From: an uncultured Bacillales bacterium
GTDB lineage: Bacteria > Bacillota_I > Bacilli_A > RFN20 > CAG-288
Assembly: GCA_905211645.1 (NCBI GenBank)
Contig: CAJMBK010000007.1
Location: 159 to 64,158, forward strand
Reading direction: 5' to 3'
Length of the DNA: 64,000 nucleotides
The translations under genes were made by a program, and so were the position numbers. Shown one piece after another: positions 11,983 through 47,700 of this stretch. A model generated the notes under the pieces. It did no database searches and had not been told where the DNA came from. It saw nothing but the letters and a program-made list of their open reading frames with translations. The number at the start of each line of letters is the position of its first letter. Positions within the stretch are counted from its first letter, which is position 1.

Positions 11983-12339
11983 TTACTTGTTGTTAAGAGT
12001 TTCTTTCAAACGTGCGCTCTTACCAGAGAGGTTACGAATGTAGAAAATCTTCTTACGACGGACTTTACCGGACTTGACAACTTGAATTGAAGCGATTGTT
12101 GGTGAATTGACCAAGAAATTACGTTCAACACCGACACCGTAGGAAATCTTTCTAACAATGAAAGTTTTGCTGACGCCAGAACCTCTGAAACCGATGCAAA
12201 GACCTTCGAAGACTTGGATACGTTCCTTATTACCTTCACGGATCTTGACGGATACTCTTAAAGTATCACCGGTTTTGAAACTTGGGATATCGTGTCTTAA
12301 TTGAGTTTGAGTAACTTCATTAACTAAATTTAAGTTCAT
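11983..12339 (-). CDS. rplS: 50S ribosomal protein L19
   Basis: [32 protein letters not shown] is the canonical L19 core. SD AAGGAG upstream. Confidence 0.96.
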
Positions 12340-12464
12340 CGATTTTCTCCTTTATACTAATCTTTGCTTTTAACTGTTCACAATCTTGGATTGGCGGAAC
12401 AAAGCTATGCAACTAAAGTTGCTCATTAAGTTTAGCAAATTTGAAAATCTAAGTAAATGGAAAT

Positions 12465-14257
12465 TTAATCGCTGATGTAGGAGATGTAGTTTTGATTGTA
12501 TATTATACCCTTGATAGTGTAAGTTTCACCAACTGTCAAATCTTCAGGAAGATTCTTAATTATGTAGGCGACGCCATTTGGACCTTCGATCTTATTCTTT
12601 GCAGTTGCAGTTCCTGTTAAAGATACGAATTTAGCGTTTAAAACATTGGTGTATGTTTCGTCAAATTCTGCTGTAATTTCGGTGTATGTGATATCAACAT
12701 CGAGGTCTTCATTGAGAACAACAGCAGTAGCATTTGAGCTATTGTAGATATTTAATTTACCACTAGCAAATGCCTTAGAGAATAAACAAAGCATTACTGT
12801 ATCGCCGATATTTAATTGGTTGTAAACAAAGTCTTTGAAAGCAACGCTCAATCCGCCGGTTCCATCATACACAACATAGTGACTACTTGCATGACCTTTT
12901 GCAACGATTTTTGCTTTGATGTAGGTTGCTTCACCTTGAACAAGACCATCCTCATTTGCCTGAGCAAGTGTTTTGTAAGGAAGTTTATCGATATCATCAT
13001 CAAGAACCAAAACTGTCATAGTATCAAGTAAATTAAAGATAGAATTGTATAATTTAATAGTTTGATAACCGTAATAGTCTTTGGTTAAAATCTCATTGTC
13101 ACTTACGTTAATGACAATTTCTCTAGTTGCAGTAATTAATTCAGTATTAGTTCTAATTTTACTGACATCTTCTGGTTTTAAATTATTGATGAAATCGGTC
13201 AAAGTGTAAGTTGAATTTGCGTGCAATATCACTGAATCTTCTTTGAAAGTAATAGGAGCAGCCTTAACGTTGATTGTGTAACTTGCAGTAACTGATTCAT
13301 CTCCTTTGGAAGTAACTTTCAAAGTGGTTATACCTTCTGCTAAACCAGTAACAATACCATTCACATCAACCTCTGCAATAGTGCCATCTTCAATTTCAAA
13401 GTTAAGATTGGCATTGCTTGCTTCTGAAGGTGTTAATGTAGGTTTTATTTTATAAGTTTCACCGATTTCGATATCGATTGTATCTGTTTCAGTTTCGATG
13501 TCGGTGACTACTGTTTCTCTGGGAAGAATCTTGATATCAAGTGAGCAATCTGAATCTTCTGTCCAGTATGCTGACCATTTAGGCTGAGCTAAAACATTGA
13601 CTTTACCAACACCTAGTGCAGTAACTGTGACACTTCTATTTTCATCATCCATTGTTAATTCAGCTATGTTTACAGCTGACTCATATTTATTTTGGAGTTG
13701 AATACCTTCTGAAGCATCTAAAGGCTCAACGTCAAAAGTGAAAGTCTTAGTTTCACCAACTTTCATTTCAACAGTAGCGTGGACGGATTGTCCGGTGGAA
13801 TGTTCAGAAATTGAATGGATGTATTTACCCAAATCTTTTGTAGCACCGCAGCGGCATTCAAAGTAAACATGGCCTGTTTCTTCATCAAGTTTTGTTCCTG
13901 TTGGATAAGGAACTTCGTGCTGTTGCATCTTGATTTCAGCGTCACATCTATCACATTTGAAGAAGTGGTAACTCTTATCGTATTCAGAACCTTCGTGATA
14001 GTGATAGACACCATCTGTATTGACGTGTCCACCTAAATCTGGAATAGTTTCATACTCCTTGTGACCGCACTTTTTACAAGTTCTTTCTTTTTGACCTTCG
14101 GTTGTGCAACCCGCTTCTCTCGTGACAACCCATTCACCATACTCATGATTGGTGCATTCCTCAACTACTGAAGTGCTTGCGCTATCTTCAGGACCACAGG
14201 AATTGAGGGGGGGGTTATCAGACATAAGGAAGCGACTAAAATTAGTTTCTTTTTCAT
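12465..14257 (-). CDS. surface lipoprotein with a Cys-rich N-terminal region and bacterial Ig-like (Big_2) domains; the frame is broken at a C8 tract inside the signal peptide
   Basis: ATG 14257 lies 9 nt after GGAG and encodes MKKKLILVASLCLITPP. This frame stops at 14165. The 586-aa body (12465..14225) is in the +1 frame and its ATG has no SD. With 9 C instead of 8 the product reads MKKKLILVASLCLITPPPLNSCGPED... (signal peptide plus a lipobox-like LNSC). Big_2-like segments include IVTGLAEGITTLKVTSKGDESVTASYTINV. Confidence 0.7.
14207..14214. repeat. G8 (C8 on the coding strand) homopolymer, candidate slipped-strand phase-variation tract
   Basis: attgaGGGGGGGGttatc. It is the longest G/C run I noticed in this AT-rich window and lies exactly at the frame break of the lipoprotein gene. 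Confidence 0.8.
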
Positions 14258-14501
14258 ACGTCTGTTCTCCTTTTTATATTATCTATATTATAGGTGACGG
14301 ATAGATTTTTGTCGCTTACGACTATAATGTATTAAGAGCAAAAAACTTGCTATTGATTTCCAAATTTCAATTTGATACTCTATTAAGGTATATGGGCTAA
14401 GTATGCAATTTTTTACTAGCCTTATGTTAATTAACGTGGGAGAAGATGTAACTCTTCATTAACCACGCCAAGACATTTCAAATTAGGAGGAAAAAAGTCT
14501 C

Positions 14502-14921
14502 ATGGCAGCTAAAAAAGTTACAAGAGTCATGAAGGTCATGGCTATGGGCGGTGAAGCAAGCCCTGCAAAGCTTGGTCAAAAATTAGGTCCTTATGGTATC
14601 GGTCCTAAATTCTGTCAAGATTTCAATGCAAAAACTTCAGATCGTAGAGGTGAATTAGTCCCTTGCATCCTCACCATCTATGAAGACAGAACATTCAATG
14701 TTGAATTGAAGACATCTCCTGTCACTTTCTTATTGAAGAAAGCCGCTGGTATCGAAAAAGGTAGCCACAACAAGGCTCAAGGCATCGTCGGTCACGTTTC
14801 CCGTGAAGAAGTCGAAAAGATTGCAAACTACAAGATGCCAGATCTTAACGTTGATTCCTTAGAAGCAGCAGTCCGTTGCATCGAAGGTACCGCTAAGAGC
14901 ATGGGTATTCAAATTGATTAA
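14502..14921 (+). CDS. rplK: 50S ribosomal protein L11
   Basis: SD AGGAGG upstream. 139 aa. L11-like core with TFNVELKTSPVTFLLKKAAGIEKGS and a C-terminal MGIQID. Confidence 0.93.
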   Translation: MAAKKVTRVMKVMAMGGEASPAKLGQKLGPYGIGPKFCQDFNAKTSDRRGELVPCILTIYEDRTFNVELKTSPVTFLLKKAAGIEKGSHNKAQGIVGHVSREEVEKIANYKMPDLNVDSLEAAVRCIEGTAKSMGIQID

Positions 14922-32192: not shown

Positions 32193-32237
32193 TCATGTAG
32201 TGTGATTATGCGTTTTTTAATTGAAAAGGAGAATAAT

Positions 32238-33380
32238 ATGTATATAAGTCAGCAGCAACGATATCTAAGATCCACGATTACTGCTTTATCATTAATCTGT
32301 TCTCTTTTAGTAATTTTTACAGCAGCATTATCGCTAATTCCATTATTTCTATTTGTAAATCTTCTTTTAGTTTTACTCTCTGTTGGTTTTGTAGTTAGAT
32401 ATCTTAGATATTATAAGAGAATGAAAGATATATGGCTTAAACCAGTTAATGATATTCGTTCATTCACCTCATTATCATTTGCAAGTTTTGTATGTTTAAT
32501 TCTTACGTATTTTCCTTATTCATTTACTGGATTAATTCATCTAACAGTAATATTAGAATTATTTCATCTTGTAACATTAGTGCCGATGTTTATTCTTTAT
32601 AATGATTTTAAGAAAACGGATTGTAAACTAGATAAACATTCTCTAAATCTGGTCAAAGCTAATGTTATCTTTGTAGGACTAATAAATCTTATTTATGGTG
32701 TACTATCTTCTTTTTTGATACGAAATATTTTCACGATTATTTATCTCTATTTTCCTTTAAGCATAAGTACAGCATGGGTATTAATTTTTTGTTTCACAGT
32801 TCTTAATAGAGAATATGAAAATGTATATAAAAATCAGGAGACTAAGGGTTTAATCCTTTTTATTGTAGGTATTATCTTAGTAGCAATTGGTAATGTAATT
32901 TGTTTTAAGTTTGAAGAATCTTTAGTACCACATATTTTAATTGCAATATTTTCTTTATTGCAATTTGTTGGAATTATCTGTCTTTGCATTTCTTTTGTCT
33001 TTGGAATACCCAAAGGAAAAGAAAAATTGTATAAGATTTTGGATATTTGTGCTCTTGGAGTAGTTATTACTACAAATGCAGCTGTAAATACGGTTCTTAA
33101 AGGGGATTACGTAAATTTGATTGTTATGGATAATTTATTCATGAATATTGGTGTTCTATTTGCTGTTGCAGTATTCTTATGCTTAAAAGACAGACAAAGT
33201 AATAACTTACCTTATTTCTGCCTAATACTTTTATTCTATTTTGCAAATTGTTACTCAGGATTTGCTATTGTTCCTTCCTGGTTAATAATGGCTGTAACAT
33301 CAATAGTTTTCATTGTTCGAATTTTGATAAGCAGAAAGAAAGCAACAAGTTCTAATAGGCAGATTCCCGCTAATGTCTAA
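32238..33380 (+). CDS. polytopic membrane protein, unknown function
   Basis: ATG 32238 follows AAGGAG with a 6-nt spacer. About 380 aa with about 10 hydrophobic segments. Confidence 0.6.
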   Translation: MYISQQQRYLRSTITALSLICSLLVIFTAALSLIPLFLFVNLLLVLLSVGFVVRYLRYYKRMKDIWLKPVNDIRSFTSLSFASFVCLILTYFPYSFTGLIHLTVILELFHLVTLVPMFILYNDFKKTDCKLDKHSLNLVKANVIFVGLINLIYGVLSSFLIRNIFTIIYLYFPLSISTAWVLIFCFTVLNREYENVYKNQETKGLILFIVGIILVAIGNVICFKFEESLVPHILIAIFSLLQFVGIICLCISFVFGIPKGKEKLYKILDICALGVVITTNAAVNTVLKGDYVNLIVMDNLFMNIGVLFAVAVFLCLKDRQSNNLPYFCLILLFYFANCYSGFAIVPSWLIMAVTSIVFIVRILISRKKATSSNRQIPANV

Positions 33381-35367: not shown

Positions 35368-35545
35368 CAAAAAAATTTTATAGTTGAGTATGGTTGTGTA
35401 AGCCCTTACTTATACAAATTTTTATTAATTTTGCCGGTTTTCTTAAAAAGTGCTTGAAAAAACAAATAAATTTAGGAAAATCGCCATTTTTTAAAAAAAT
35501 CATTTGTATATAATTTTCATAGTTCATATAAAGGAGGAGTTATAT

Positions 35546-38314
35546 ATGAAAAATTTAAAGAAGTCCCTTTCACTTATTTTCCTTTCTTCTTTATCACTTA
35601 CTTCTTGTAGTGGTATTCCAAGCGAATGGGCTGATGGTATCGACTGGGCAGAAGCAGAGCCAGGCGAAACTACATACAAAACATTAACAGATAAAGCTCG
35701 TAAAGCTGAATATAAGACATATTATTCATATATGCCTAACAGCTGGAACACAGCAACAACCTTCCAAGCTGAAGATGCTTACTATTTATCTAATGTTGTC
35801 GACTCTTTAATCGAAGTTGACCAATACAACAGAATCGTTCCTGCTCTTGCAACTGAAGTTCCTTCCCTTACAAACGGTGGAATCAAAGTTGTCGATGATC
35901 ATTATGAAATCACATTGACCATCAAAGATGATGTATGGTGGGTTGAAAATGATGGCTTCGGTGAAAAGAAAGTTGAAAAAGTTAAAGCTGAAGACTTCGT
36001 TACTGCAATGAAGATCAATTTGAACTTCGCTTCACGTTCAAATTCATCCTACTTGCCTCAAATGTTCTTAGCTGGTGCTTCCGATTATTATTATGCAACA
36101 TATTACATGGCTCAATATGAAACTGCAGAAGATAAGAAAGGTGCAACAAATGCTAAGGAATTCGCAGCTGTATTGTTAGGTTGCACAACTCAGGACATCG
36201 ATCAAATCTTAACATTCGAAGGCGTTGGTGTTAAAGCTGATGGCAATAAAGTTACATACATCTTAACCGGTAAGCAAGAATACTTCCTTTCCGTTTTAAC
36301 ATATACTCCATTCTTACCTGTTCCAACAGAATTCTACAATGCTCACACTGGTACATTCGGTAAGGATCCTAAGAATATTCTCTCCTGTGGTGCATATGTT
36401 GTTGATGGTTCCTATAAACAAGGTGTTTCCAAGGAAGTTATCTTAAATAAGAACTTAAACTATTATGATAAGAACCACGTCATGAACGGTCGTGTTCACA
36501 TCATGCTCTATCCTGAAGATTCCGATGAAACAACATTAAGAAAGTTGTTCGAATCAGGCACAATTGATTCATTCGGCGTTGATACATCCGATATCGAAGG
36601 TGTTAAGAAGTATATTACTGGTGAATCTGGTAAAGGTACTATCTTGAGTCCTGATAACAAATACTCAACAAGTATCGACAGTCCAGGTGAAGGTTCCACA
36701 ATGGCCTACAACCTCAACACTCACAGAACAGTTTACAAAGGTTCATTGTTCGATACAGAAGGTGCAGATCACTTCGATAATGCATTGATGAAATCTAACA
36801 ACAACTTGGATTTAGTTGATGACCCACTCAATGAATCCACAGAAGAACAAAAACTTCCTTCCGCTCTTGTCAATACAAACTTAGCATTATCCTACTCACC
36901 TAAGTTACGTGAAGCTGTCTTAACTTCTCTTGACTACTCAACATATTGGGTTAATAATCTCAAGACATACGATTCATACCAAGATCGTAGATTGAATGTT
37001 AATACATACACACCTCATGGTTTTATTACAACAGATGAACCAGCTGCTAATGGTGGTCATGACTATGTCGACTTCCTTGAAGAAGCATGGGTTAATGAAC
37101 GTGTTCTTGGTAAAGAAATCACTGTTGAAGGTGGTAAAGTTGTTAAAGAAACCTATGGTGCAACAGTTTTAGGCAAAGATAGCGTTACATTAAGTGAATT
37201 AGTTAAGTCTGAAAATGCAGATGCTAAAGCATATGCTCAAACATTGATTGACGCAGCACAAGACTTATTCTCACCTGGTGCAATGGGTCTTTACAACTTG
37301 ATTCCTGCTGTTGATGAAGAGCAAGGTAAGTTCACTGGTTTCGCAGTCGAATCCACTGAAGTTGGTCACTACGATGCTACAATCGGTAAGACTGGTGATA
37401 CAATTAGCTCCGCAGTTTCAACAGGTGCTGCTTTATCCGGTTCTTCTGAAGAAGGCGAGAGCGAAACTTGGTATAAATCACGTTCACGTGATACAGCATA
37501 TCTCTCCAAGTTAGTTAGTGAAGGTATTGCTGAAGCTCAAGCTAACCTTACAGCTGCAGGTCTTAATTGGCAAATTCAAACTCCTATCATCATCGAAGCT
37601 CCTACACTTAACTTCTCCGATGATCAAACCCAATTACAAGCTGCTTTCTTAAACCGTTCAAATGCTAATATTAATGGTGGTAAATACATCAGTGCTACTG
37701 ATGATATTGCTCCTGCTCAATACCGTGACGTTGGTGTTGGTGAAGCAAGTGATACTATCAAAGCAAATGATGCTCAAGTTCTCTTTGTCCAATCCACAAA
37801 AGGACTCATTCCTGATAGTCAAACATATTCAACCATCAACTCAACATACAACTGCACATTATTAGCTTCTGGTTGGATTCCAGATTACTCTGATGCTAAG
37901 ACATATGCAGATACAGTTAGAGCTAACGGTGACCTTTCTGGCTTACTCGGTCTTTCTTACGATACTAACTCTTCTGATAGTATTAATGCAAAACGTGTTA
38001 AGAGTATCACTGATGATTATCAAACATTGATTGACGAAGCTGACGCTCAAGTTGGTTCCGCAAACCGTGCTAGAGGTTATGCTGCTGCTGAAACCGATTT
38101 ACTCTTCGATAATTACTTATTAAGACCTTTATACAACAGAGGTCAAGGTATCACTGTTCAAGTCAGAAGAACACTTCCTAAGGGTGCAACAACACTTGCT
38201 TGGGGTCTCAACTCAACCAAGTTGAAAGGTGTCCAAGTCTTCGATGAGACTTTAACATCAGACATCGTCAAAGGTGTTTATGATGAAATCACAGCAATTA
38301 GAAATGCTGCTTAA
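35546..38314 (+). CDS. oppA: oligopeptide ABC transporter substrate-binding lipoprotein (family 5 SBP), oversized at 922 aa
   Basis: ATG 35546 follows AAGGAGGAG. Signal peptide MKNLKKSLSLIFLSSLSLTSC with lipobox LTSC. Family-5 signature-like TLTIKDDVWW. Lies directly 5' of oppBCDF. Confidence 0.8.
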   Translation: MKNLKKSLSLIFLSSLSLTSCSGIPSEWADGIDWAEAEPGETTYKTLTDKARKAEYKTYYSYMPNSWNTATTFQAEDAYYLSNVVDSLIEVDQYNRIVPALATEVPSLTNGGIKVVDDHYEITLTIKDDVWWVENDGFGEKKVEKVKAEDFVTAMKINLNFASRSNSSYLPQMFLAGASDYYYATYYMAQYETAEDKKGATNAKEFAAVLLGCTTQDIDQILTFEGVGVKADGNKVTYILTGKQEYFLSVLTYTPFLPVPTEFYNAHTGTFGKDPKNILSCGAYVVDGSYKQGVSKEVILNKNLNYYDKNHVMNGRVHIMLYPEDSDETTLRKLFESGTIDSFGVDTSDIEGVKKYITGESGKGTILSPDNKYSTSIDSPGEGSTMAYNLNTHRTVYKGSLFDTEGADHFDNALMKSNNNLDLVDDPLNESTEEQKLPSALVNTNLALSYSPKLREAVLTSLDYSTYWVNNLKTYDSYQDRRLNVNTYTPHGFITTDEPAANGGHDYVDFLEEAWVNERVLGKEITVEGGKVVKETYGATVLGKDSVTLSELVKSENADAKAYAQTLIDAAQDLFSPGAMGLYNLIPAVDEEQGKFTGFAVESTEVGHYDATIGKTGDTISSAVSTGAALSGSSEEGESETWYKSRSRDTAYLSKLVSEGIAEAQANLTAAGLNWQIQTPIIIEAPTLNFSDDQTQLQAAFLNRSNANINGGKYISATDDIAPAQYRDVGVGEASDTIKANDAQVLFVQSTKGLIPDSQTYSTINSTYNCTLLASGWIPDYSDAKTYADTVRANGDLSGLLGLSYDTNSSDSINAKRVKSITDDYQTLIDEADAQVGSANRARGYAAAETDLLFDNYLLRPLYNRGQGITVQVRRTLPKGATTLAWGLNSTKLKGVQVFDETLTSDIVKGVYDEITAIRNAA

Positions 38315-38384
38315 TTAAACTGTTTAAATAATATTAAGGTATTAATTTAAAGAATAGAAATCTATAATTATTATTGATAAAATA

Positions 38385-38422
38385 TTATGGCTAGTTTAAG
38401 CTGAACTAGCCATAATTTATTT
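38385..38422 (+). terminator. oppA-oppB intergenic hairpin (partial terminator / attenuator)
   Basis: TTATGGCTAGTT...AACTAGCCATAA perfect 12-bp stem followed by TTTATTT. Confidence 0.65.
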
Positions 38423-38438
38423 ATGAGGAGGTATATAA

Positions 38439-39629
38439 ATGAGAGATTTGGATCTTGGGATTCAAAAAATCATCGTTATCAGTTTATATACTGTAATTGT
38501 CGGTCTCATAGTTGCTTTCGTTGTAACTGCAATCTTAGTTAGAAAGAAAGTTATTTTGAAGTATTCCAATTCCGGTATAAAAAGATTTTTTGGTAACTCT
38601 TTACTTTATTACTCTTTAAGAAGAATCGGTTCAGCGATTATTACGATGTTCCTTGCAATCATCGTTACCTACTTCTTGTTGAGATTTAACTACAATCCTA
38701 ACAACTTCTGTGACGGAATTTTTATTAAGTTCCCAGTTGCTATTAGACCTCAGCTTTGTGACCAAATGCTCACAGCAATGGGCTACACCGGTTCCACTTT
38801 TGAGCAATTGTTAAGATTCATCTATAACGTTATTCCTTTCCCTAAAGAAATATCTGACTTCCAATCCACAGACTTAAATGGTAATGCAGCATATGTTTAT
38901 TGGGGTATTATCAATTTTGGTAACGGTTATCAAACCGGTAAAACAACCTTAACCCCACTCATTCAAGATATGATTGGTGATTATATCGGTTTATCCTTAG
39001 TCATTGGTGCTATCGGTTTCATCATCAGCGAACTTTTAGGTTATCCATTCGGTGTTTTACTTGCCAAATACAAGAACAAATGGTTCGATAAAGTTGGTAA
39101 TGCCTGTATCATCTTAGTCTTTGCTATCCCATCTGTTGTTTTCTACTACTTGTTCAAACAAGCATTCGATGCAATGGGATTCCCAATGCTTTACACATCG
39201 ACTAACTTTGCTTCATTAATTGCTCCTGGTCTTATCATGGGTCTTGGTTCATTCTGGTCTATCGCTTTATGGGTTAGACGTTACATGGTTGACGAATTCG
39301 GCTCCGATTACGTTAAATTCGCACGTTCTAAGGGTGTTCCTGAGAACAAGATTATGTATAAGCACGTTTTAAGAAACGCTATCATTCCACTTGTCAGATC
39401 CTTCCCAGCATCCATCTTATACTGCTTAGTTGGTTCATTCTTCATCGAATCCATCTACAGCGTTCCAGGTATCGGTTACCAATTATACGATGCCTTGACT
39501 AAGAACAATTTCCCTGCTGTTCAAGGTTTCACTATCTTCTCAGCATTTATTTCAGTTATCGCTTCAGTTAGTGGTGATATTCTTACCGCAGTTTGCGACC
39601 CTAGAATTTCATTCACTGCAAATGATTAA
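38439..39629 (+). CDS. oppB: oligopeptide ABC transporter permease OppB
   Basis: SD GAGGAGG upstream. Permease motif FARSKGVPENKIMYKHVLRNAIIPL. Confidence 0.9.
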   Translation: MRDLDLGIQKIIVISLYTVIVGLIVAFVVTAILVRKKVILKYSNSGIKRFFGNSLLYYSLRRIGSAIITMFLAIIVTYFLLRFNYNPNNFCDGIFIKFPVAIRPQLCDQMLTAMGYTGSTFEQLLRFIYNVIPFPKEISDFQSTDLNGNAAYVYWGIINFGNGYQTGKTTLTPLIQDMIGDYIGLSLVIGAIGFIISELLGYPFGVLLAKYKNKWFDKVGNACIILVFAIPSVVFYYLFKQAFDAMGFPMLYTSTNFASLIAPGLIMGLGSFWSIALWVRRYMVDEFGSDYVKFARSKGVPENKIMYKHVLRNAIIPLVRSFPASILYCLVGSFFIESIYSVPGIGYQLYDALTKNNFPAVQGFTIFSAFISVIASVSGDILTAVCDPRISFTAND

Positions 39630-39640
39630 AGGAGGTTAAT

Positions 39641-40597
39641 ATGCAAAAGGTTATAAATGATAAGTTTATTAAATCTAATGACGAAGAACTTTTTGAAATT
39701 ATTGGCGTCCAAAACGAAAGCATCGATGCTTTATCAACTGCTCCTTATTCATATTGGACTGAAGTTTTCAAAACATTAGCTCACAACAAAGGTGTTTGGA
39801 TCTGTTTATTCTTATTCCTCGTTGTTATCTTCTTCGCTATTTTTGGTAACAACTGGTGCTACTATGATCCAAACCAACTTCTTACAAATAAATATGAAGG
39901 ACCATCTGTTGAACACTGGTTCGGTGTCGGTTCCAAATGGGACTTATGGACTGTTACCTGGTCAGGTGCTAGAACATCCCTTATCCTTTCAGTCTTAGTC
40001 TCTTTAATCAACATCGCTTTAGGTCTTATCATCGGTTCTGTCTGGGGTTACTTCCCTAAGATTGACCCTATCATGATTGAAATTAGAAACTTCTTCACTA
40101 ACGTTCCAGCCCTCTTGTTGAACGTTATGTTTATGAAGCTGTTCCTGAAAGCGAGCGTGGATGCCTTCTGGGCTGTCACATTCTGTTTGTGCTTCACAGG
40201 TTGGCTCGGTTTAGCTTCCACAATCAGAAACCAAATCATCATCATCAGAAATCGTGACTTCAACATTGCTTCTAAGACTTTAGGTAGTAAGTCAGTCACT
40301 ATGATTATTCACAACATGCTTCCACAAATCATCGCTGTTGTTGTTACCTTAGTTGCTAACTCAATCCCAGCCGCCATCGACGGTGAAGTCTCATTATCAT
40401 TCTTCGGTTTGTCCGTTTCTAACCCAATCGAACCTACATTAGGTTACGTTATTAACACTGGTGCTAAAGACAGTAACTGGCCAACATCACCACATATTGT
40501 TATGTTGCCTGCTCTGGTCACCATCTTAATTACAATCACATGTTACTACATCGGTTTCGCTATCGCTGACGCTGCCGATCCTAGAACACATAGATAG
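39641..40597 (+). CDS. oppC: oligopeptide ABC transporter permease OppC
   Basis: SD AAGGAGG upstream. 6 TM segments. ASKTLGSKSVTMIIHNMLPQ motif. Confidence 0.9.
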   Translation: MQKVINDKFIKSNDEELFEIIGVQNESIDALSTAPYSYWTEVFKTLAHNKGVWICLFLFLVVIFFAIFGNNWCYYDPNQLLTNKYEGPSVEHWFGVGSKWDLWTVTWSGARTSLILSVLVSLINIALGLIIGSVWGYFPKIDPIMIEIRNFFTNVPALLLNVMFMKLFLKASVDAFWAVTFCLCFTGWLGLASTIRNQIIIIRNRDFNIASKTLGSKSVTMIIHNMLPQIIAVVVTLVANSIPAAIDGEVSLSFFGLSVSNPIEPTLGYVINTGAKDSNWPTSPHIVMLPALVTILITITCYYIGFAIADAADPRTHR

Positions 40598-40609
40598 GAG
40601 GAATTAAAT

Positions 40610-43426
40610 ATGGAAAAGAAATTTTATACCTCCGAATTGATTGAAGAAAAATTAAATCAATCTTCTGATAGAAAAGCACTTATTGAAAAAGTCTACTGTG
40701 ATTTGGATTTAAGTAAAACTCTTAAACCAAGAAAAGTAGATGATGCAGAAAACCTTTCTGAAGATGTCTTGGATATCTCAAACTTGAACGTTTACTTCAA
40801 GACTCACGGTCATGATAACCATGTTATTCGTGGCATTGATTTGAAGATTAAACGTGGTGAAACATTCGCTATCGTCGGTGAATCTGGTTCCGGTAAATCC
40901 GTTTTCACAAAGACTTTATCCGGTATGAACGAAGCCAACGGTAAGATTAAGAAAGGTAAAATCCTTTTAAAGGGAATCAAGATTGCTGACCCTAAGATCG
41001 TCAAGAGAAACTTCTCCGATGAAGATCATAGAAAAGACGTCTTGAAAGCTATGCATGAACGTTCAGCCGAATCTTGTGCTGAAAAAGCATTGAAAGAATT
41101 CGATAAAGCTCACGAAAAGAAGCTCAAATCTTTATATGCTCAATTCAATAAGAACGATACTGAACATTTAGTTAACCTTAAAAACGAAAAGTTAACTACA
41201 ACATATAATAACAGACTTGAATATCTCGACTTATTCACAACTGACAAAGTTTCCAAAGCCTTAGCAGTTAAAGCTAAAGAAGGTTTAGTTAAGCAAAACG
41301 TTGTTTCCAAGTTCTCCAGATCTGTTAACAGAATTGTTTTACCAAGAGAAGTTGCAGTCGCTGAATCTGTTTCTGCAGATACAATTGCTAAGAACTTTGA
41401 TGCTTTTATGGAAAAAGAAGGAGTCAAAGCTTTAGTTAGCACATATGAAAAAGGTTTAGAAACTATTTCCTCCTACTCATATGACGAGATTATGAAAGCT
41501 AAATATGCAAGTTTGGATTGCTATATTTCTGCAGTCAAACTTCATAATCGAATTAAGTCTTTTATCAATGCTGAAATTGCAAATATTAAGAAGTTACCAA
41601 CTTCTAAAGGTGCAAATAATGCAGGTGCACACAGCAAAGCTCTTGAAGTCTACATGACTTTAGTTGATATTTACACCAAATCTATCAGCTACAGAAATGA
41701 TGTTATCAATCATTTCGAAGATACTTTGATTGACTTAGTCAATGCAGAAGAACAAAAGCAAAGAGAAATCGCTGCTGAAACTGCAAAGACAAATCTTGAA
41801 GCCTACAAACAAGAATTAGAAGTAACTGCAAGTGAAAGACAAAAAGTTATTGAAGACTTGAATGCACAAATCAATGCAATCAATGATGAATCTAAGGCTC
41901 AAAGAGAAGCTTTAGCTGCAGAATGGTCTGCAAAGTGTTCAGAACAAGAAGAGAAAAATAAAGAAATTTTATCTTACCCAATCTTCTCCGATGAAGAAAG
42001 AAAGTTCATGAAGACCTTTACAACTAAAGATTTATTAGTTGTCCTTGATGAAAAAGTTCAACTTATCGAACTTTTACTCCATCGTGAAGAGTACATTTCT
42101 CAAGTTGAAAATTACAAGACAAAGTGTTTGGAAGCTTATGAAACAAATGACCACAAGAACCTTGTAACATATGCAAAACTTCTTGATATCAATTTGAACC
42201 AAGATTTCACTGATATCACAAACTTTAAGAAGAGAGCACATGAACTTGAGATTGATATTGAAAAACGTAATGCATCCTTGGATAAGAATTCAGAAACTTA
42301 CCAAACTCGTTACGATTTGCTCGAAACTGAGTTCAAAGGTAAGATGGCTGCATTAGATCGTGACATTGAATTTACAGAAACTAAGATTCAAAAGAAAATC
42401 AAGAATGCAAATATCTTCGATTCCAAGATTCTTTCCGATATTGATCAAGATATTTTTGAAGTTAGAAACTTTGTTAAACATTCCACAAGAACATTTAGAA
42501 AGTTATTCAGAAATATCAAGTTCAATCACGATATGGTCAGAAATCTTAAGGCTAGAGGTATCATCACCAATGAATACGTCGACCTTGCTAAATTCAAGAC
42601 CAACAAGGAATGGTCAATGATCAGAGGTAGTAGAATCGCTACTATTTTCCAAGATCCTATGACATCCTTAAATCCTTTAATTTCAATCGGTGAACAAATC
42701 TCTGAAGTTTTAAGACTTCACCACAATTTGTCCCGTGAAGAAGCTAAGAAGGAAGCAATTAACTTATTAGCAAAGGTTAAGATTCCTCAACCAGAACAAA
42801 GATACAAGGAATATCCATTCCAATATTCCGGTGGTATGAGACAGAGAGTTGTTATCGCAATTGCTCTTGCCTGTAGACCTGATATCTTAATTTGTGACGA
42901 ACCTACAACCGCTTTGGACGTTACTGTTCAAGCTCAAATTTTGAAGCTCATCAAGGATATTCAAAAAGAATACCACTTCACAACAATCTTCATCACTCAC
43001 GATTTAGGTGTTGTCGCTGGTGTTGCTGATAGAATTGGTGTTATGTACGGTGGCCAAATCGTTGAATACGGCACTGATGAAGATATCTTCTACAGACCTG
43101 CTCACCCATACACATGGGCACTTCTTTCTTCATTACCACAGCTTGCTGTCAGTGATGAACCATTAACTTACATTAAAGGTAACCCACCATCATTTGGTAA
43201 GGAAATTGAAGGTGACGCATTTGCTCCTAGAAGTAACTATGCTATGAAGATTGACTTCATCATGGAACCTCCAATGACACAAGTTTCCGAGACACACTTT
43301 GCTAAGACATGGTTGCTCGACCCTAGAGCTCCTAAGGTTAAGAAACCTGTTATCATCAGAAATCTTGAACAAAGAATGCAAGAAACTGCTAAAGAATTCT
43401 TAGTTGCAGAGAAAGGAGAGAACTAA
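40610..43426 (+). CDS. oppD: oligopeptide ABC transporter ATP-binding protein OppD with an internal helical insertion of about 550 aa
   Basis: SD AGGAGG upstream. Walker A GESGSGKS (about residue 92), Q-loop [11 protein letters not shown] (about residue 676), signature YSGGMRQR, Walker [13 protein letters not shown], and an oligopeptide C-terminal domain. Confidence 0.9.
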
Positions 43427-43427
43427 T

Positions 43428-44429
43428 ATGGCAGAAAAGACAGAATTAGCTCCTTTAACTAGCAACGATACATTAGGTAATAACAACTCTGAAAATATCG
43501 TTGAGATGAAGCACGTTAGAATCGGCTTCAAATCCGGTACTAAGATGAGAGTTGTTATCGATGACTTAAATTTGAACATCAAACGTGGTGAAATCTTAGG
43601 CTTGGTCGGTGAATCTGGTTCTGGTAAGACCACAATCGGTCGTGCCATCATCAGAATTGTTCCTACTATGTCTGGTTCCATCCTCTACAACGGTATTCAA
43701 ATTAACGGTAAGATTCCTTACTCCCTCGAAAGAGAACTTAAGACAAAGATCCAAATGATCTACCAAGATCCATCTGCTTCTTTGAATGAGCGTGCTAATA
43801 TCGACTACATCGTTTCCGAAGGTTTAAGAGCCTTCCACATGTATGAAAATGAGCAAGACCGTTTGAAGAAAGTCAGTGACATCATCAACCGTGTTGGTTT
43901 ACGTCCTGAACACTTAAAACGTTTCCCTCATGAGTTCTCCGGTGGTCAAAGACAAAGAATCGGTATCGCTAGAAGTATTGTTATGAATCCAGAAATGATC
44001 ATTGCTGACGAACCTATCTCAGCTCTTGACGTTTCCATCCGTGCTCAAGTTTTGAACCTTATCAAGAGTTTCCAAACTGAGAACAAGATGACAGTTTTAT
44101 TCATCGCTCACGACTTATCAGTTGTTAAGTACATCTCCGATAGAATTGCTGTTATTTATCAAGGTCAAATCGTTGAAATTGCATCCAGTGATGAACTCTT
44201 CGATTTACCATTACATCCATATACACAATCACTTTTAACTGCTATTCCAATTCCAGATCCACACATTGAGAAGAATAAGGTCATCAAGACTTACAAGAAT
44301 ACTGGTGATCCTTCCAAGACTAAGCTCTACGAAGTTTATCCAAATCACTTTGTCCGTTGCTTACCAAATGATTTAGAATCCTACAAAGAGAAGGCAGAAG
44401 CTTTCCACAAGTCTAAAAAGACTAAATAA
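43428..44429 (+). CDS. oppF: oligopeptide ABC transporter ATP-binding protein OppF
   Basis: ATG 43428 follows GGAGAG and lies 1 nt after the oppD stop. Motifs GESGSGKTT, IYQDPSASLN, FSGGQRQR, IIADEPISALD. Confidence 0.93.
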   Translation: MAEKTELAPLTSNDTLGNNNSENIVEMKHVRIGFKSGTKMRVVIDDLNLNIKRGEILGLVGESGSGKTTIGRAIIRIVPTMSGSILYNGIQINGKIPYSLERELKTKIQMIYQDPSASLNERANIDYIVSEGLRAFHMYENEQDRLKKVSDIINRVGLRPEHLKRFPHEFSGGQRQRIGIARSIVMNPEMIIADEPISALDVSIRAQVLNLIKSFQTENKMTVLFIAHDLSVVKYISDRIAVIYQGQIVEIASSDELFDLPLHPYTQSLLTAIPIPDPHIEKNKVIKTYKNTGDPSKTKLYEVYPNHFVRCLPNDLESYKEKAEAFHKSKKTK

Positions 44430-44771: not shown

Positions 44772-47700
44772 ATGGCTAAAGATAAACCAGCTAATTCAGC
44801 GGTAAAATTAAAAAATGCTGATAAGCGCCAATTTGCTTACACTAAGGATGGACGTTTAGTTCCTACTCAAACCAAAGATGAACTCAAAAAACGTTTTGCA
44901 TCCAAGCGTTACATGAAGAAAAAGAGTGCCTTCCCACGTGGTTTTGCAATTTTTATCTTCGTTTTAGTTCTTATCTTTTTAACATTGAGAGCTGTTGACA
45001 TCATTTTCTACAATGATATGCAACAATTCTTGAAAGACATTTTCGATAAAGTCTTCCATTTCTTCGACAGATTAGATAACTTCTTATTCGGTGCATACAA
45101 AGGGCAGTTAGTTTTCACTGTTCACGGCGTCGACATCGATAAGATGACTTTGTATGGCTTTATTTACCTAGTATTCTTAGGTATTTCATTGTCACTTATC
45201 TTCTTCTTTGTTTTCTCATTCTTCTCCTGGATCAATAGAAAAGTCAAAGCTAGAAGAGAAGCAAAAGCTAACATTGACAACTATCTTGATGGAGTTAAAA
45301 CAAATGCATTAAGCAACAACTATGTCGTTAGTAAGAAAGGTGTCCTTTTACCAGTTTATTCCGCAACTGAAATGCGTGATGTCTTCTCATATGAAAGATA
45401 CAAGAGAAGAGCACCAGTCTTCCGAATTGTAATTGGTATCGTCTTATTACTTGTCGCATTATTACTCACAGTTTTGAAATTTGGCCAATACTTTGCAATC
45501 AATGGAAAGACAGGCATTGCTTTCTTTGATTTCTTCATGGAGAACTCATTCTTCTCTAAATTTATCCCACAGTTCTTGAATTCAATGCAGATGTATGACA
45601 AAGTCGCTGCTAAATTCATCCCTGATATTACAATTTTGAACAATGTCATCAACGGTATGTCTTTGACATTAGCCGATTTCATGGCATGCGTCTTCATGTT
45701 CTGCACACTTATTGCAGTCATCGCATTCGTTATTACAATCTTTACAATCATCAACTTATTCTTCAAAGATACTCGTTCCAGAGCTAAAGCAAAGAAAGCC
45801 AAGAAGAGATATCTTAAAGAAATCGATTCCGCTCAAGTATATGAGACTGAAAAGAATGCAGTCTTAGCAAGTTCAGTCTTAGAAACACCTCAAGTCAAAT
45901 ACTCTGTTGCTGATGACGATGTTGTCAAGATTAACGGTGTTCCTTACATCCCACTTCTTGATAGAGCAATCGAACAAGAACTTTCTAGAAACGATGATGT
46001 TTCATCTGTTAATGGTGAACATGTTGTCGATATCTTAAATGACCAAAGAGAATCTGGTGATATTGAAGAAGAAGCAGAAGTTGTTGCTCCTGAATTACCT
46101 GTTGATATCACAACTATCGCTAAATACTCCAAGAAAGAATCCGCATTCTTGGATATGGTTTCACTTAAAGGTGAAATGTACTTTGATGAAGATAATATTC
46201 TTCAAATCAAAGAATACGAAGATGAGAAAGAACTTTATCCTCATACATCAGAAACTGCTGTCGAAAACGATACATTCATCATGTCTCGTCCATTCGACGA
46301 AGCTTTGTTACAAGAAAAAGTCGAAATTTCTCAAAAGGCTCCATTCTCCTTACTTAATGAAAGAGATGTTGCAGAAAAATCTATCGATTATGCCTTAGAG
46401 AACCAAGGCATGTACACCAGAGAAGATTTCGTCACATTGAACAATGTCGAACCTTTCGAAATCGAAGCAGTTACTGACTATCCAATCGACTCGCTTGATG
46501 AATATCTCGATGATAAGCATGCTAAGGATCAACTTGATGAAGAAGAAAATCCTTTAATCAATCAAGATGTTATTGAAGAAGATATCGACGAATTATTACC
46601 TTTACTTGTCAAAGACGAGGAAAGACATGTTGTTCACGATATTGATCTTACATCCACACGTCCTGAATTACCTGATGAAGATGCAGTTGAAAATCCTGTT
46701 CTCGAACAATCTGAACAATTGGCTAACTACATTTACATCGGTGATGATGAATACGAAATTGTTTCACTTGAAGAAGTCGAACCTCTTGCACCTGCAGATG
46801 TTCCTTTAACTGATGATGAAATTCAAGCTCTCTTTGCTAAAGCTGATGTTGTCACATCAACTCCTGATAACTTATCCGATTTGGATGACTTACTCAGCGA
46901 AGAAGTTAGTGAAGAAAATCCTGTTGCTGAATCAGCTGAAGAGACAGTTGCTTCTGAAGACACAAGCTTAGTCATGCTTGAAGAGGTTGAACCTCTTGAT
47001 GAAGACTATGAAGAACTCGAAGAGAACTCTGTCTTAGCACAAGAAGAATATGACGATTCTTTGGATGAAGAAGAAGTTGCCTATGTTGAAGAAGCAATTC
47101 CTGCTGAAACTGAAGAAGAAGTATTCGAAGAACCTGAAGAAGAACAATTATCATTTGACTTTTACGCAAACGATGAATTTGTTGATAATCCAATGATTCC
47201 TCAAGAGGAAGATGTTGACGAAGAAGAAGTCAATGAAGTAGTACCTCAAGAAGAAGTTGAACCTCTTGTTGATGAAGATGCTAACGCAATCATTCCTCAA
47301 GATGAAGTCGATGAAGAACTTGAAGAACTCAACGAAGATTACACACCTCTTGTTTACGCTGTCGATAGAGTTGGTGAAACTGAACCTGTTGAAGAAGAAT
47401 TAGCCGACGAAGTTGAAGAAGCTTTGGAAGATAATCCATTACTTGAACAAGAAGAAATCGATGATAACCCAATCTTAGAACAAGAAGAGATTGAGGAAGA
47501 AGTTGAAGAGTTACAAGACTATGTACCTCTTGAAGCTGCAAGTAAAGAAAGTGTTACTCAACCTGATGAGACTTTAGGCGAAGATCCTTACAAGGATGAT
47601 GAATTAGAAGATAATCCACTCATTCCTCAAAACGATCTTATCGAAGATATCGAATCCAAGTCCATTTCCACAAATGGTGTTTCCTCCAAGGTTAAACCTA

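What the first reader, a model, noticed from the sequence alone, without database searches (positions are those of the whole stretch)
14165..14257. G8/C8 tract splits a lipoprotein signal peptide from its 586-aa Ig-like surface protein body (phase-variation candidate)
On the minus strand, ATG 14257 is preceded by GGAG at a 9-nt spacing and encodes MKKKLILVASLCLITPP. The codons for the prolines are a C8 run (G8 at 14207-14214 on the + strand). In the assembled sequence this frame stops after 30 codons (TAG at 14165-14167). The long ORF (12465..14225) is in the +1 frame and begins at an ATG with no SD. Adding one C (C9) fuses the two. The result is MKKKLILVASLCLITPPPLNS-CGPEDSAS..., a textbook n-region, h-region and lipobox-like LNSC, followed by the Cys-rich and Big_2 domains. 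A G/C homopolymer this long is conspicuous in an AT-rich genome. It also sits where slipped-strand mispairing switches surface lipoproteins ON and OFF in Mycoplasma and other host-associated bacteria. The alternative explanation is a homopolymer length error in the assembly.
Basis: partly seen in the sequence, partly recalled or inferred. Interest (0 to 1): 0.75.

Follow-up and report, generated by a model that had tools for sequence, protein, structure and literature searches.

The report
Poly-C switch in gut-bacterium surface protein
A run of eight C's sits between the export signal and the body of a surface protein gene of an uncultured human-gut bacterium. Related strains carry 6, 7, 8 or 9 C's at the same spot, so this is a classic slippage-type on/off (phase-variation) site, caught here in the off state, and not an assembly error.

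Summary
G8 lies at 14207-14214 (C8 on the coding minus strand). It separates a promoter/SD/ATG-driven signal peptide (ATG 14257) from an intact 586-codon body (12465-14225). C6, C9 or C12 fuse the two parts. One detail is wrong: C9 gives ...ITPPLNSC (two Pro), not PPP.

Related human-gut assemblies of the same species carry C6, C7, C8, C9 and an interrupted in-frame C4-T-C4. The 43-nt signal-peptide sequence is identical in all of them. The 562-codon body is intact in all 17 loci (dN/dS about 0.25). Tract states are scattered over the gene tree. C8 recurs in independent assemblies, so an assembly error is unlikely.

CCC is 1.1% of Pro codons, and no other homopolymer of 8 or more of any base exists in the 64 kb.

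Best reading: a slipped-strand, translational phase-variation site on a probable lipoprotein with Ig-like (Big_2) domains. The closest published parallel is Gardnerella nanH3.

Reversible switching within one population was not tested because no reads are available. The lipobox (LNSC) is non-canonical.

A second, unexplained class of alleles has foreign DNA at the 5' end.

This is a new member of a known kind and of moderate interest.

The parts
14207..14214 (-). Poly-C tract (C8 here), the hypermutable switch. It supplies the last base of Thr ACC, two CCC Pro codons, and, in the body frame, the first base of Leu CTC.
   Evidence: for the sequence. Lengths 6, 7, 8, 9 and C4TC4 in related loci. 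CCC is 1.1% of Pro codons.
14215..14257 (-). Start codon plus the n- and h-regions of the signal peptide (MKKKLILVASLCLI, then the first two bases of Thr15, whose third base is the first C of the tract). The reading frame is that of ATG 14257.
   Evidence: The 43 nt are identical in every related locus that contains them.
14165..14257 (-). The 30-codon truncated product of the C8 (OFF) state, ending at TAG 14165-14167.
14267..14270 (-). Shine-Dalgarno GGAG, 9 nt upstream of ATG 14257.
   Evidence: Conserved in relatives.
14287..14315 (-). Promoter-like site: GCGACA, 17 nt, TATAAT.
   Evidence: 10 of 12 matches. TATAAT is conserved in all related loci. Function is inferred.
14196..14207 (-). 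Lipobox-like L-N-S-C in the body frame, with Cys codon TGT at 14196-14198. It is in frame with the signal peptide only at C6, C9 or C12.
   Evidence: LNSC is conserved in all cluster members. Comparators are LTSC in another lipoprotein of the window and in homologue P0014.
12465..14225 (-). Body ORF (586 codons as callable in the C8 state): Cys-rich modules, Ig-like domains and an orphan C-terminal region.
   Evidence: Intact with no indels in 17 loci and 11 haplotypes; dN/dS mean 0.25.
13821..14168 (-). Cys-rich repeated module region (about residues 20-135 of the 586-aa ORF): C..HEYGEW.V...A.C...G...R.C..CG.
   Evidence: phmmer hits to this module in many large surface proteins. In P0014 it directly follows a lipoprotein signal peptide ...TLTSC.
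13293..13508 (-). Big_2 (PF02368) Ig-like domain. The AlphaFold model shows beta domains at about residues 148-235, 240-325 and 326-410.
   Evidence: E = 5.6e-11, 42.7 bits against a cut-off of 22.8. (pLDDT 70-90 in this region only).

Best explanation
The C-run is a hypermutable homopolymer, a contingency locus. It lies between the signal-peptide core and the lipobox-like LNSC of a lineage-specific surface protein in an uncultured Bacilli bacterium of the human gut.

Slipped-strand mispairing during replication adds or removes C's.
- C6, C9 (and C12): translation from ATG 14257 reads through into the body. The product is an exported, probably lipid-anchored protein with Cys-rich modules and Ig-like domains (ON).
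- C7, C8, C10: translation stops after 22-30 codons. The body has no ribosome-binding site or export signal of its own (OFF).

The window shows the OFF (C8) state.

Shown here: the anatomy; the frame logic; tract-length polymorphism between strains with conserved flanks; recurrence of states across the gene tree; an intact, constrained body in OFF alleles; and an interrupted C4TC4 allele that should be a stabilised ON form.

Inferred: slippage as the mechanism; reversibility within a lineage; surface exposure and lipidation; and the selective agent (for example antibody, phage or niche).
For: 1. Frame logic.

2. Expression signals belong to ATG 14257, not to ATG 14225.

3. The 90%-identity protein cluster has 24 members, of 597 aa (ITPPLNSC), 596 aa (ITPLNSC), 586 aa (MSDNPPLNSC, which is C8) and 487 aa.

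4. DNA of related loci:
- C6: L003, L094.
- C7: L099.
- C8: window (= L086, L101), L087, L091, L092, L093, L103.
- C9: L001, L002, L088-L090, L100.
- C4-T-C4 (in frame): L097, L102.

5. The 43 nt upstream of the tract, the SD and the -10 hexamer are conserved in ON and OFF alleles alike.

6. The body is 1686 nt with no indel or stop in 17 loci and 11 haplotypes. Divergence is 1.1-3.9% and dN/dS is 0.09-0.42, mean 0.25.

7. On the NJ tree the 5' state needs at least 6 changes on 11 tips, the same as random shuffling of states. Tree length is 0.094 substitutions per site, so the tract changes tens of times faster than an average site.

8. The closest pair with different tracts differs at only 2 of 870 flanking positions: L099 (C7) against L097 (C4TC4).

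9. Haplotypes with identical flanks always show the same tract, and the window's C8 product is on record from ENA, Logan and NCBI. The calls are therefore reproducible, not noise.

10. CCC is 1.1% of Pro codons, and no other homopolymer of 8 or more exists in 64 kb.

11. Homologue P0014 has a lipoprotein signal peptide (…TLTSC) directly followed by the same Cys-rich module.

12. Published precedent with the same architecture: in Gardnerella nanH3 a poly-C of 8-14 lies right after the signal peptide, the gene is ON at C9 or C12, and OFF alleles are annotated without the signal peptide (bioRxiv 10.1101/2020.09.16.300947).
Against: - No read-level data, so mixed tract lengths within one sample and reversibility are untested.
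- Haplotypes with identical flanks never differ in tract length. The rate is therefore not so high that every sample differs. Some of these loci may be re-assemblies of the same samples.
- In-frame alleles are not clearly enriched: about 8 in-frame against 5-6 out-of-frame distinct proteins (these are not independent samples).
- LNSC has Asn at position -2, outside the usual lipobox consensus (consensus recalled from memory).
- Recombination between strains could inflate the apparent number of independent tract changes.
- Only one such tract could be examined. The rest of the genome was not available.
Confidence: 0.72

Rival explanations
1. Fixed loss-of-function. The tract is merely a mutational hot spot. 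In the window's strain the gene is a young pseudogene with no adaptive, reversible switching.
For: - C8 is the commonest state (5 haplotypes).
- Haplotypes with identical flanks keep the same tract.
- Four further samples carry a different 5' disruption: foreign DNA with a TAG just before the Cys codon. Loss of this protein therefore recurs and is tolerated.
Against: - No OFF allele has a second lesion in 562 codons, and dN/dS is 0.25.
- Promoter, SD and signal-peptide sequence are fully conserved in OFF alleles.
- OFF and ON states interleave on the tree.
- A tract made of very rare CCC codons persists in a genome that otherwise has no homopolymer of 8 or more.
Confidence: 0.15
2. Homopolymer length error in sequencing or assembly. 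The real sequence is C9 and the gene is simply intact.
For: Homopolymers are the classic site of indel errors. The source is a metagenome assembly.
Against: - The identical 586-aa (C8) product is on record from NCBI, ENA (MEGAHIT k127 contig) and Logan, with six contigs read that carry it.
- C8 recurs in four other haplotypes from other samples.
- C6 differs from C9 by 3 nt and occurs in two haplotypes.
- Where haplotypes with identical flanks come from several loci, samples or assemblers, the tract call agrees.
Confidence: 0.05
3. Recoding. The C8 allele is still expressed. In the frame of ATG 14257 the run forms a C_CCC_CCC slippery heptamer. A -1 ribosomal frameshift, or RNA-polymerase slippage that adds one C, would give exactly the C9 protein. 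Tract length would then set the expression level rather than ON or OFF.
For: - The heptamer and the identity of the resulting product follow directly from the sequence.
- The 106 nt starting 11 nt upstream of the tract (14225-14120, minus strand) fold better than shuffles (MFE -33.2 kcal/mol, z = -2.9).
Against: - The predicted hairpin starts inside the tract, with no 5-9 nt spacer.
- Many relatives are directly in frame (C6, C9, C4TC4), and C7 would need the opposite shift. A frameshift requirement is therefore not conserved.
- There are no experimental data.
Confidence: 0.08

Closest known systems
Gardnerella piotii nanH3 sialidase poly-C tract (Kurukulasuriya, Patterson & Hill; bioRxiv 10.1101/2020.09.16.300947, read)
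   Same: A cytosine homopolymer lies immediately after the signal-peptide-coding region of a cell-surface protein gene. The gene is full length at C9 or C12 and truncated otherwise. OFF alleles are annotated as a protein lacking the signal peptide. The host is a human-associated Gram-positive bacterium.
   Different: - There the tract is 8-14 C's about 100 nt into the ORF. Here it is 6-9 C's at nt 44, upstream of the lipobox-like LNSC motif.
- The product there is a sialidase with a C-terminal membrane anchor. Here it is an Ig-like, Cys-rich probable lipoprotein of unknown function.
- Within-culture length heterogeneity was shown there by clone sequencing. Here only between-strain polymorphism is shown.
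- The host there is Actinomycetota, here Bacilli.
Neisseria opa genes: CTCTT repeats in the signal-peptide-coding region (Murphy et al. 1989, listed as ref. 118 in PMC11868660; mechanism details from my own knowledge)
   Same: A translational ON/OFF switch by slipped-strand mispairing inside the leader-peptide coding sequence of a surface protein.
   Different: The repeat is a pentanucleotide, not a homopolymer. Opa is a multigene family of Gram-negative outer-membrane proteins. Here there is a single-copy gene with no close paralogue.
Mycoplasma variable surface lipoproteins switched by homopolymer or SSR tracts: vlp of M. hyorhinis, maa2 of M. arthritidis, vmm of M. mycoides (as summarised in PMC2268961)
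   Same: A low-GC, host-associated lineage related to Bacilli. The switched product is a surface lipoprotein. The tract changes by slippage.
   Different: Those tracts lie in the promoter spacer and act on transcription. Here the tract is inside the ORF and acts on translation. Those genes often belong to families and combine with site-specific inversion.
General class: N-terminal coding homopolymers as contingency loci (PMC3315296, read; PMC2831843, title and abstract opening only, in the listing)
   Same: An SSR placed near the N-terminus, so that a frameshift abolishes the whole protein, and variable among strains of one species.
   Different: Those surveys cover cultured, mostly pathogenic species. 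This case is an uncultured human-gut commensal lineage, seen only in metagenomes.

Membership tests
SSR-mediated translational phase variation (contingency locus) | A homopolymer or SSR long enough to slip (about 7-8 or more for G/C) inside the 5' part of the ORF | tested here: met
   C8 at nt 44-51 of the ORF from ATG 14257.
SSR-mediated translational phase variation (contingency locus) | Length changes toggle between a full-length and a truncated product | tested here: met
   C6, C9 and C12 give 596-598 aa. C7, C8, C10 and C11 give 22-31 aa.
SSR-mediated translational phase variation (contingency locus) | Tract length is polymorphic among close relatives while the flanks are conserved | tested here: met
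   C6, C7, C8, C9 and C4TC4 occur in loci at most about 4% divergent. The 43 nt upstream are identical.
SSR-mediated translational phase variation (contingency locus) | Recurrent, independent changes of state rather than one ancestral event | tested here: met
   At least 6 state changes on an 11-tip NJ tree, equal to random shuffles. My hand count on that tree gives at least 4 for the tract-only states. Recombination could inflate these counts.
SSR-mediated translational phase variation (contingency locus) | OFF alleles are otherwise intact (not decaying) | tested here: met
   The 562-codon body has no stop or indel in all 17 loci. dN/dS mean is 0.25.
SSR-mediated translational phase variation (contingency locus) | High-frequency, reversible switching within a clonal population | not testable with these tools
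   Needs read pile-ups, amplicons or cultures. Only consensus assemblies are available.
Bacterial lipoprotein (Lgt/LspA substrate) | N-terminal basic n-region followed by an uncharged hydrophobic h-region | tested here: met
   MKKK followed by LILVASLCLIT.
Bacterial lipoprotein (Lgt/LspA substrate) | Lipobox [LVI][ASTVI][GAS]C at the end of the signal peptide (consensus recalled from memory) | tested here: inconclusive
   L-N-S-C fits at positions -3, -1 and +1. Asn at -2 does not fit. The motif is conserved in all alleles. The same organism uses LTSC (ATG 35546), and homologue P0014 has TLTSC directly before the same module. No SignalP or LipoP was available.
Bacterial lipoprotein (Lgt/LspA substrate) | Diacylglyceryl modification of the Cys and cleavage by signal peptidase II | not testable with these tools
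   Experimental.
Big_2 (PF02368) Ig-like domain surface proteins | A Pfam match above the gathering score | tested here: met
   42.7 bits against a cut-off of 22.8, E = 5.6e-11. Thousands of Big_2-repeat relatives.
Invertible-promoter (inverton) phase variation | Inverted repeats flanking the promoter or 5' region | tested here: not met
   No inverted-repeat pair brackets the promoter and 5' region (14165-14320) in the repeat scan of 12300-14600. The foreign 5' ends of L004, L005, L095 and L096 remain unexplained.
Programmed -1 ribosomal frameshift site | Slippery heptamer X_XXY_YYZ in the upstream frame | tested here: met
   C_CCC_CCC in the frame of ATG 14257 in the C8 allele. This is a formal match only.
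Programmed -1 ribosomal frameshift site | The frameshift requirement is conserved among relatives | tested here: not met
   C6, C9 and C4TC4 alleles are directly in frame. C7 would need the opposite shift.

The most novel reading that the evidence does not exclude
The gene may be a multi-mode contingency locus of a prevalent, uncultured human-gut Bacilli lineage. Expression would be tuned in three ways:
- by tract length (C6 or C9 ON, C7 or C8 OFF, C4TC4 locked ON);
- by low-level -1 frameshifting or transcriptional slippage on the C8 heptamer, which would make 'OFF' leaky;
- by a second, recombinational event that replaces the 5' end with a multi-copy sequence (the foreign ends in four samples).

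That would mark the protein as a major target of host- or phage-imposed selection in a commensal.
Probability: 0.12. Interest if true: 0.6.

Novelty: new member of a known kind. Interest (0 to 1): 0.42.

Why it matters
Phase variation in human-gut commensals is known mainly from invertible promoters in Bacteroidota. Slippage-type switches are documented mostly in cultured pathogens.

Here public metagenome assemblies alone show such a switch in an uncultured gut Bacilli lineage. They capture ON, OFF and interrupted ('locked') alleles. This marks the protein as a likely target of fluctuating selection, for example by IgA, phage or adhesion niche.

There is also a practical point. Gene callers annotate the OFF allele as a signal-less 586-aa or 487-aa protein. 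Surface-proteome and pangenome analyses of MAGs will therefore misclassify it.

Tried and rejected
1. Relatives of the protein in GTDB representative genomes and JGI metagenome contigs: none found. An RpoB scan gave only a distant relative (77% identity, 'uncultured Bacilli bacterium', L006). There the rplS-rplK gap holds unrelated genes. The gene is therefore lineage-specific, and no orthologue outside the species could be compared.

2. Function of the body:
- Pfam finds only Big_2.
- A PDB sequence search finds only a Big_2-like stretch.
- phmmer against 1.8 billion representatives finds no full-length relative.
- The AlphaFold model is poor (mean pLDDT 51), and the N-terminal region and residues 411-586 are unmodelled. 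I ran no fold search because the matches would be meaningless.

3. The 487-aa cluster members first looked like C7 or C10 alleles. Three of them (P0018, P0023, P0024; loci L004/L005, L096, L095) turned out to be a different thing: the body joined to foreign sequence. One real C7 allele was found later (L099).

4. Origin of the foreign 5' end: it is absent from the window, from viral contigs and from JGI metagenome contigs. A simple local inversion is rejected because no exact inverted copy exists. Forward homology to the normal 5' end is no better than shuffles.

5. An invertible promoter in the window: no flanking inverted repeats.

6. Rfam: nothing reaches the gathering score anywhere in the window.

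7. Enrichment of in-frame alleles: too few and too non-independent to test.
Full report
**1. What is in the window**

On the minus strand, a promoter-like site is followed by GGAG (14270-14267), a 9-nt spacer and ATG 14257. The promoter-like site is GCGACA, 17 nt, TATAAT, at 14315..14287.

The ORF reads MKKKLILVASLCLITPP and runs into a C8 tract, which is G8 at 14207-14214 on the + strand. In this frame it stops after 30 codons at TAG 14165-14167.

The 586-codon ORF 12465..14225 is in another frame. Its ATG has no SD and its N-terminus (MSDNPPLNSC...) has no export signal.

I replaced the tract in silico:
- C6, C9 and C12 fuse the two parts into proteins of 596-598 aa.
- C7 and C10 stop after 22-23 codons.
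- C8 and C11 stop after 30-31 codons.

**2. Is it more than chance?**

A G8/C8 occurs in 5 of 100 dinucleotide-preserving shuffles, so the tract alone is weak evidence. Three further facts strengthen it.
- It is the only G/C run of 7 or more in the window.
- It is the only homopolymer of 8 or more of any base. A8/T8 is absent, although shuffles give 39 +/- 8.5 matches. This genome therefore purges long runs.
- It is built from CCC, which is 6 of 533 (1.1%) Pro codons in 34 long ORFs. CCC is used in none of the 9 other Pro-Pro pairs.

**3. Source and relatives**

The window's own 586-aa product lies on a human-gut metagenome contig (ERR321532, PRJEB4336).

The closest GTDB representative by RpoB is an 'uncultured Bacilli bacterium' at 77% identity. 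Erysipelotrichaceae and Solobacterium follow at 63%. In that relative the rplS-rplK gap holds unrelated genes. No relative of the protein exists in GTDB representatives or JGI metagenomes. The gene is therefore lineage-specific.

A search of 5.8 billion proteins with the C9-fused sequence found one cluster at 90% identity or more. It has 24 members in four length classes:
- 597 aa (…ITPPLNSC)
- 596 aa (…ITPLNSC)
- 586 aa (MSDNPPLNSC, the C8 signature)
- 487 aa

**4. Tract lengths in DNA**

I fetched the encoding contigs and read the tract in each.

| State | Loci |
|---|---|
| C6 | L003, L094 |
| C7 | L099 |
| C8 | window (= L086, L101), L087, L091, L092, L093, L103 |
| C9 | L001, L002, L088 (= L098), L089, L090, L100 |
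| C4-T-C4 (in frame, ACC CCT CCC CTC) | L097, L102 |

The 43 nt from the ATG to the tract are identical in all of these loci. The SD and the TATAAT are conserved.

Loci whose flanking sequence is identical always carry the same tract. The window's C8 product is on record from NCBI, ENA and Logan. The calls are therefore reproducible, and an assembler artefact is unlikely. Some of these loci may be re-assemblies of the same samples, so the number of independent observations is smaller than the number of loci.

The closest pair with different tracts is L099 (C7) against L097 (C4TC4). They differ at 2 of 870 flanking positions.

**5. Is the OFF allele decaying?**

No.
- From TNHEY to the stop, the body is 1686 nt with no indel and no stop in all 17 loci. 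These comprise 11 haplotypes.
- Pairwise divergence is 1.1-3.9%. dN/dS is 0.09-0.42, with a mean of 0.25.
- On an NJ tree of the body, the 5' states need at least 6 changes on 11 tips, the same as random shuffling of states.
- For the tract-only states my hand count on that tree gives at least 4 changes on 8 tips. C7 and C4TC4 add more.
- Tree length is 0.094 substitutions per site. The tract therefore changes tens of times faster than an average site. Recombination could inflate this figure.

**6. What the protein is**

- The fused N-terminus has a basic n-region, an 11-residue uncharged h-region, Pro-Pro, and L-N-S-C.
- LNSC fits a lipobox at positions -3, -1 and +1, but Asn at -2 is unusual (consensus recalled from memory).
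- The same organism has a clear lipoprotein with LTSC (ATG 35546).
- Homologue P0014 has …TLTSC directly followed by the same Cys-rich module, KKCSHEYGEWTVTKEATCT..ERTCSSCG. This supports the fused reading.
- Downstream lie Cys-rich modules that recur in very large surface proteins, a Pfam Big_2 domain and further Ig-like beta domains.
- The last 175 residues or so have no relatives and no confident model.
- The function is unknown. The domain content suggests an adhesin or binding protein, but this is inference.

**7. Mechanism**

The best-supported reading is slipped-strand mispairing at the C-run. It toggles translation between an exported surface protein and a 22-30-aa stub. The window is in the OFF state.

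The C4TC4 allele is what a stabilised ON form would look like. It is in frame and synonymous, and its longest run is 4.

Slippage, reversibility, lipidation and the selective agent are all inferred.

**8. Rivals**

- *Young pseudogene at a hot spot (0.15).* This fits the frequency of C8 and the stable tract in haplotypes with identical flanks. It does not fit the intact, constrained body, the conserved expression signals, or the retention of a rare-codon tract.
- *Assembly error (0.05).* This is contradicted by the concordant C8 product on record from ENA, Logan and NCBI, and by the C6 alleles, which differ from C9 by 3 nt.
- *Recoding (0.08).* In the C8 frame the run is a C_CCC_CCC heptamer, and a -1 shift would give exactly the C9 protein. 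The local RNA folds better than shuffles (z = -2.9). However, the hairpin has no spacer, and in-frame alleles show that a frameshift requirement is not conserved.

**9. A second allele class, unexplained**

In L004, L005, L095 and L096 (four samples, three haplotypes) the body is joined to foreign sequence:

AGGAGATTTATCACCCCTTAAATTAATCTGTGTCTACTTTTTCTTGACTAGTGCAC

- The junction lies at three different positions, offset by 0, +18 and +27 nt. A TAG sits just before the Cys codon.
- All contigs end inside this sequence. The three Logan contigs end at the same base and keep exactly 30 nt of it, which is k-1 if Logan's k is 31 (recalled from memory). A de Bruijn assembler leaves this pattern at the edge of a multi-copy sequence. 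That reading is inference.
- The piece is absent from the window, from viral contigs and from JGI contigs.
- Its forward strand is no more similar to the normal 5' end than shuffles are. Its reverse complement resembles the gene's own SD region: GAAAAAGTAGACACAGAT against GAAAAAGGAGA-ACAGAT, a score reached by about 0.1% of 2000 shuffles.
- It could be a mobile-element end or one arm of a recombination system.

**10. Comparison with known systems**

The architecture matches Gardnerella nanH3 almost point for point. There a poly-C lies directly after the signal peptide, the gene is ON at C9 or C12, and OFF alleles are annotated without a signal peptide.

It also resembles Neisseria opa, which has CTCTT repeats in the leader peptide (reference listed).

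It differs from the Mycoplasma vlp, maa2 and vmm switches, which act in promoter spacers.

N-terminal SSR enrichment as a signature of phase variation is established.

**11. Verdict**

This is a new member of a known kind, in an uncultured human-gut commensal. Interest is moderate (0.42). Read-level proof of switching is still needed.

Noticed in passing
L004 1-30, L005 1-30, L095 1-30, L096 1-56 (equivalent to window about 14150-14180, minus strand): In four samples the gene body is joined to foreign sequence ending ...CTTGACTAGTGCAC. The junction lies at three different positions, and a TAG sits just before the Cys codon. All contigs stop inside the foreign piece. The three Logan contigs stop at the same base and keep exactly 30 nt of it, which suggests a multi-copy element or a recombination site. 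The reverse complement of the piece resembles the gene's SD region.
   Followed up: partly
L097 and L102 (equivalent to window 14207-14214): An interrupted tract, CCCCTCCCC. It is in frame and synonymous (CCC to CCT), so it should be a slippage-resistant 'locked ON' allele. Its flanks differ at only 2 of 870 positions from the C7 allele L099.
   Followed up: partly
window 1-64000: There is no A8 or T8 anywhere, although dinucleotide-preserving shuffles give 39 +/- 8.5 matches. The longest A/T run is 7. The genome appears to purge homopolymers of 8 or more, with the G8 as the sole exception.
   Followed up: partly
window 1-64000: No Rfam family reaches its gathering score on either strand. This includes the ribosomal-protein leaders one might expect next to rplK-rplA, rplJ-rplL or rplS.
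   Followed up: no
window 35504-44429 (+): An Opp-like operon. It encodes a 936-aa protein with a canonical lipoprotein signal (MKNLKKSLSLIFLSSLSLTSC, from ATG 35546) and no Pfam hit. Two unscanned ORFs of 396 and 318 aa follow in the position where permeases would sit, and then an unusually long 938-aa ATPase (ABC_tran plus oligo_HPY). The layout is reminiscent of Mollicutes.
   Followed up: no
window 44772-48491 (+) and 32202-33380 (+): ORFs of 1239 aa and 392 aa with no Pfam match at E <= 1e-5.
   Followed up: no
window 14120-14225 (-): The RNA (or single-stranded DNA) around the tract folds better than shuffles (MFE -33.2 kcal/mol, z = -2.9). The fold includes a 9-bp pairing, UGAUAACCC with GGGUUGUCA, that uses the first C's of the tract. 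It also includes a hairpin, CCUCAA...UUGAGG, that starts in the last C's. Its relevance to slippage or frameshifting is unknown.
   Followed up: no
L006 2773-5674 compared with window 12340-14501: In the nearest available relative (RpoB 77% identity), the gap between rplS and rplK holds two small membrane-protein ORFs and an ORF resembling an aldehyde dehydrogenase (judged from its sequence; no domain search run), not the surface-protein gene. The phase-variable gene is therefore a lineage-specific insertion between two ribosomal-protein operons.
   Followed up: partly
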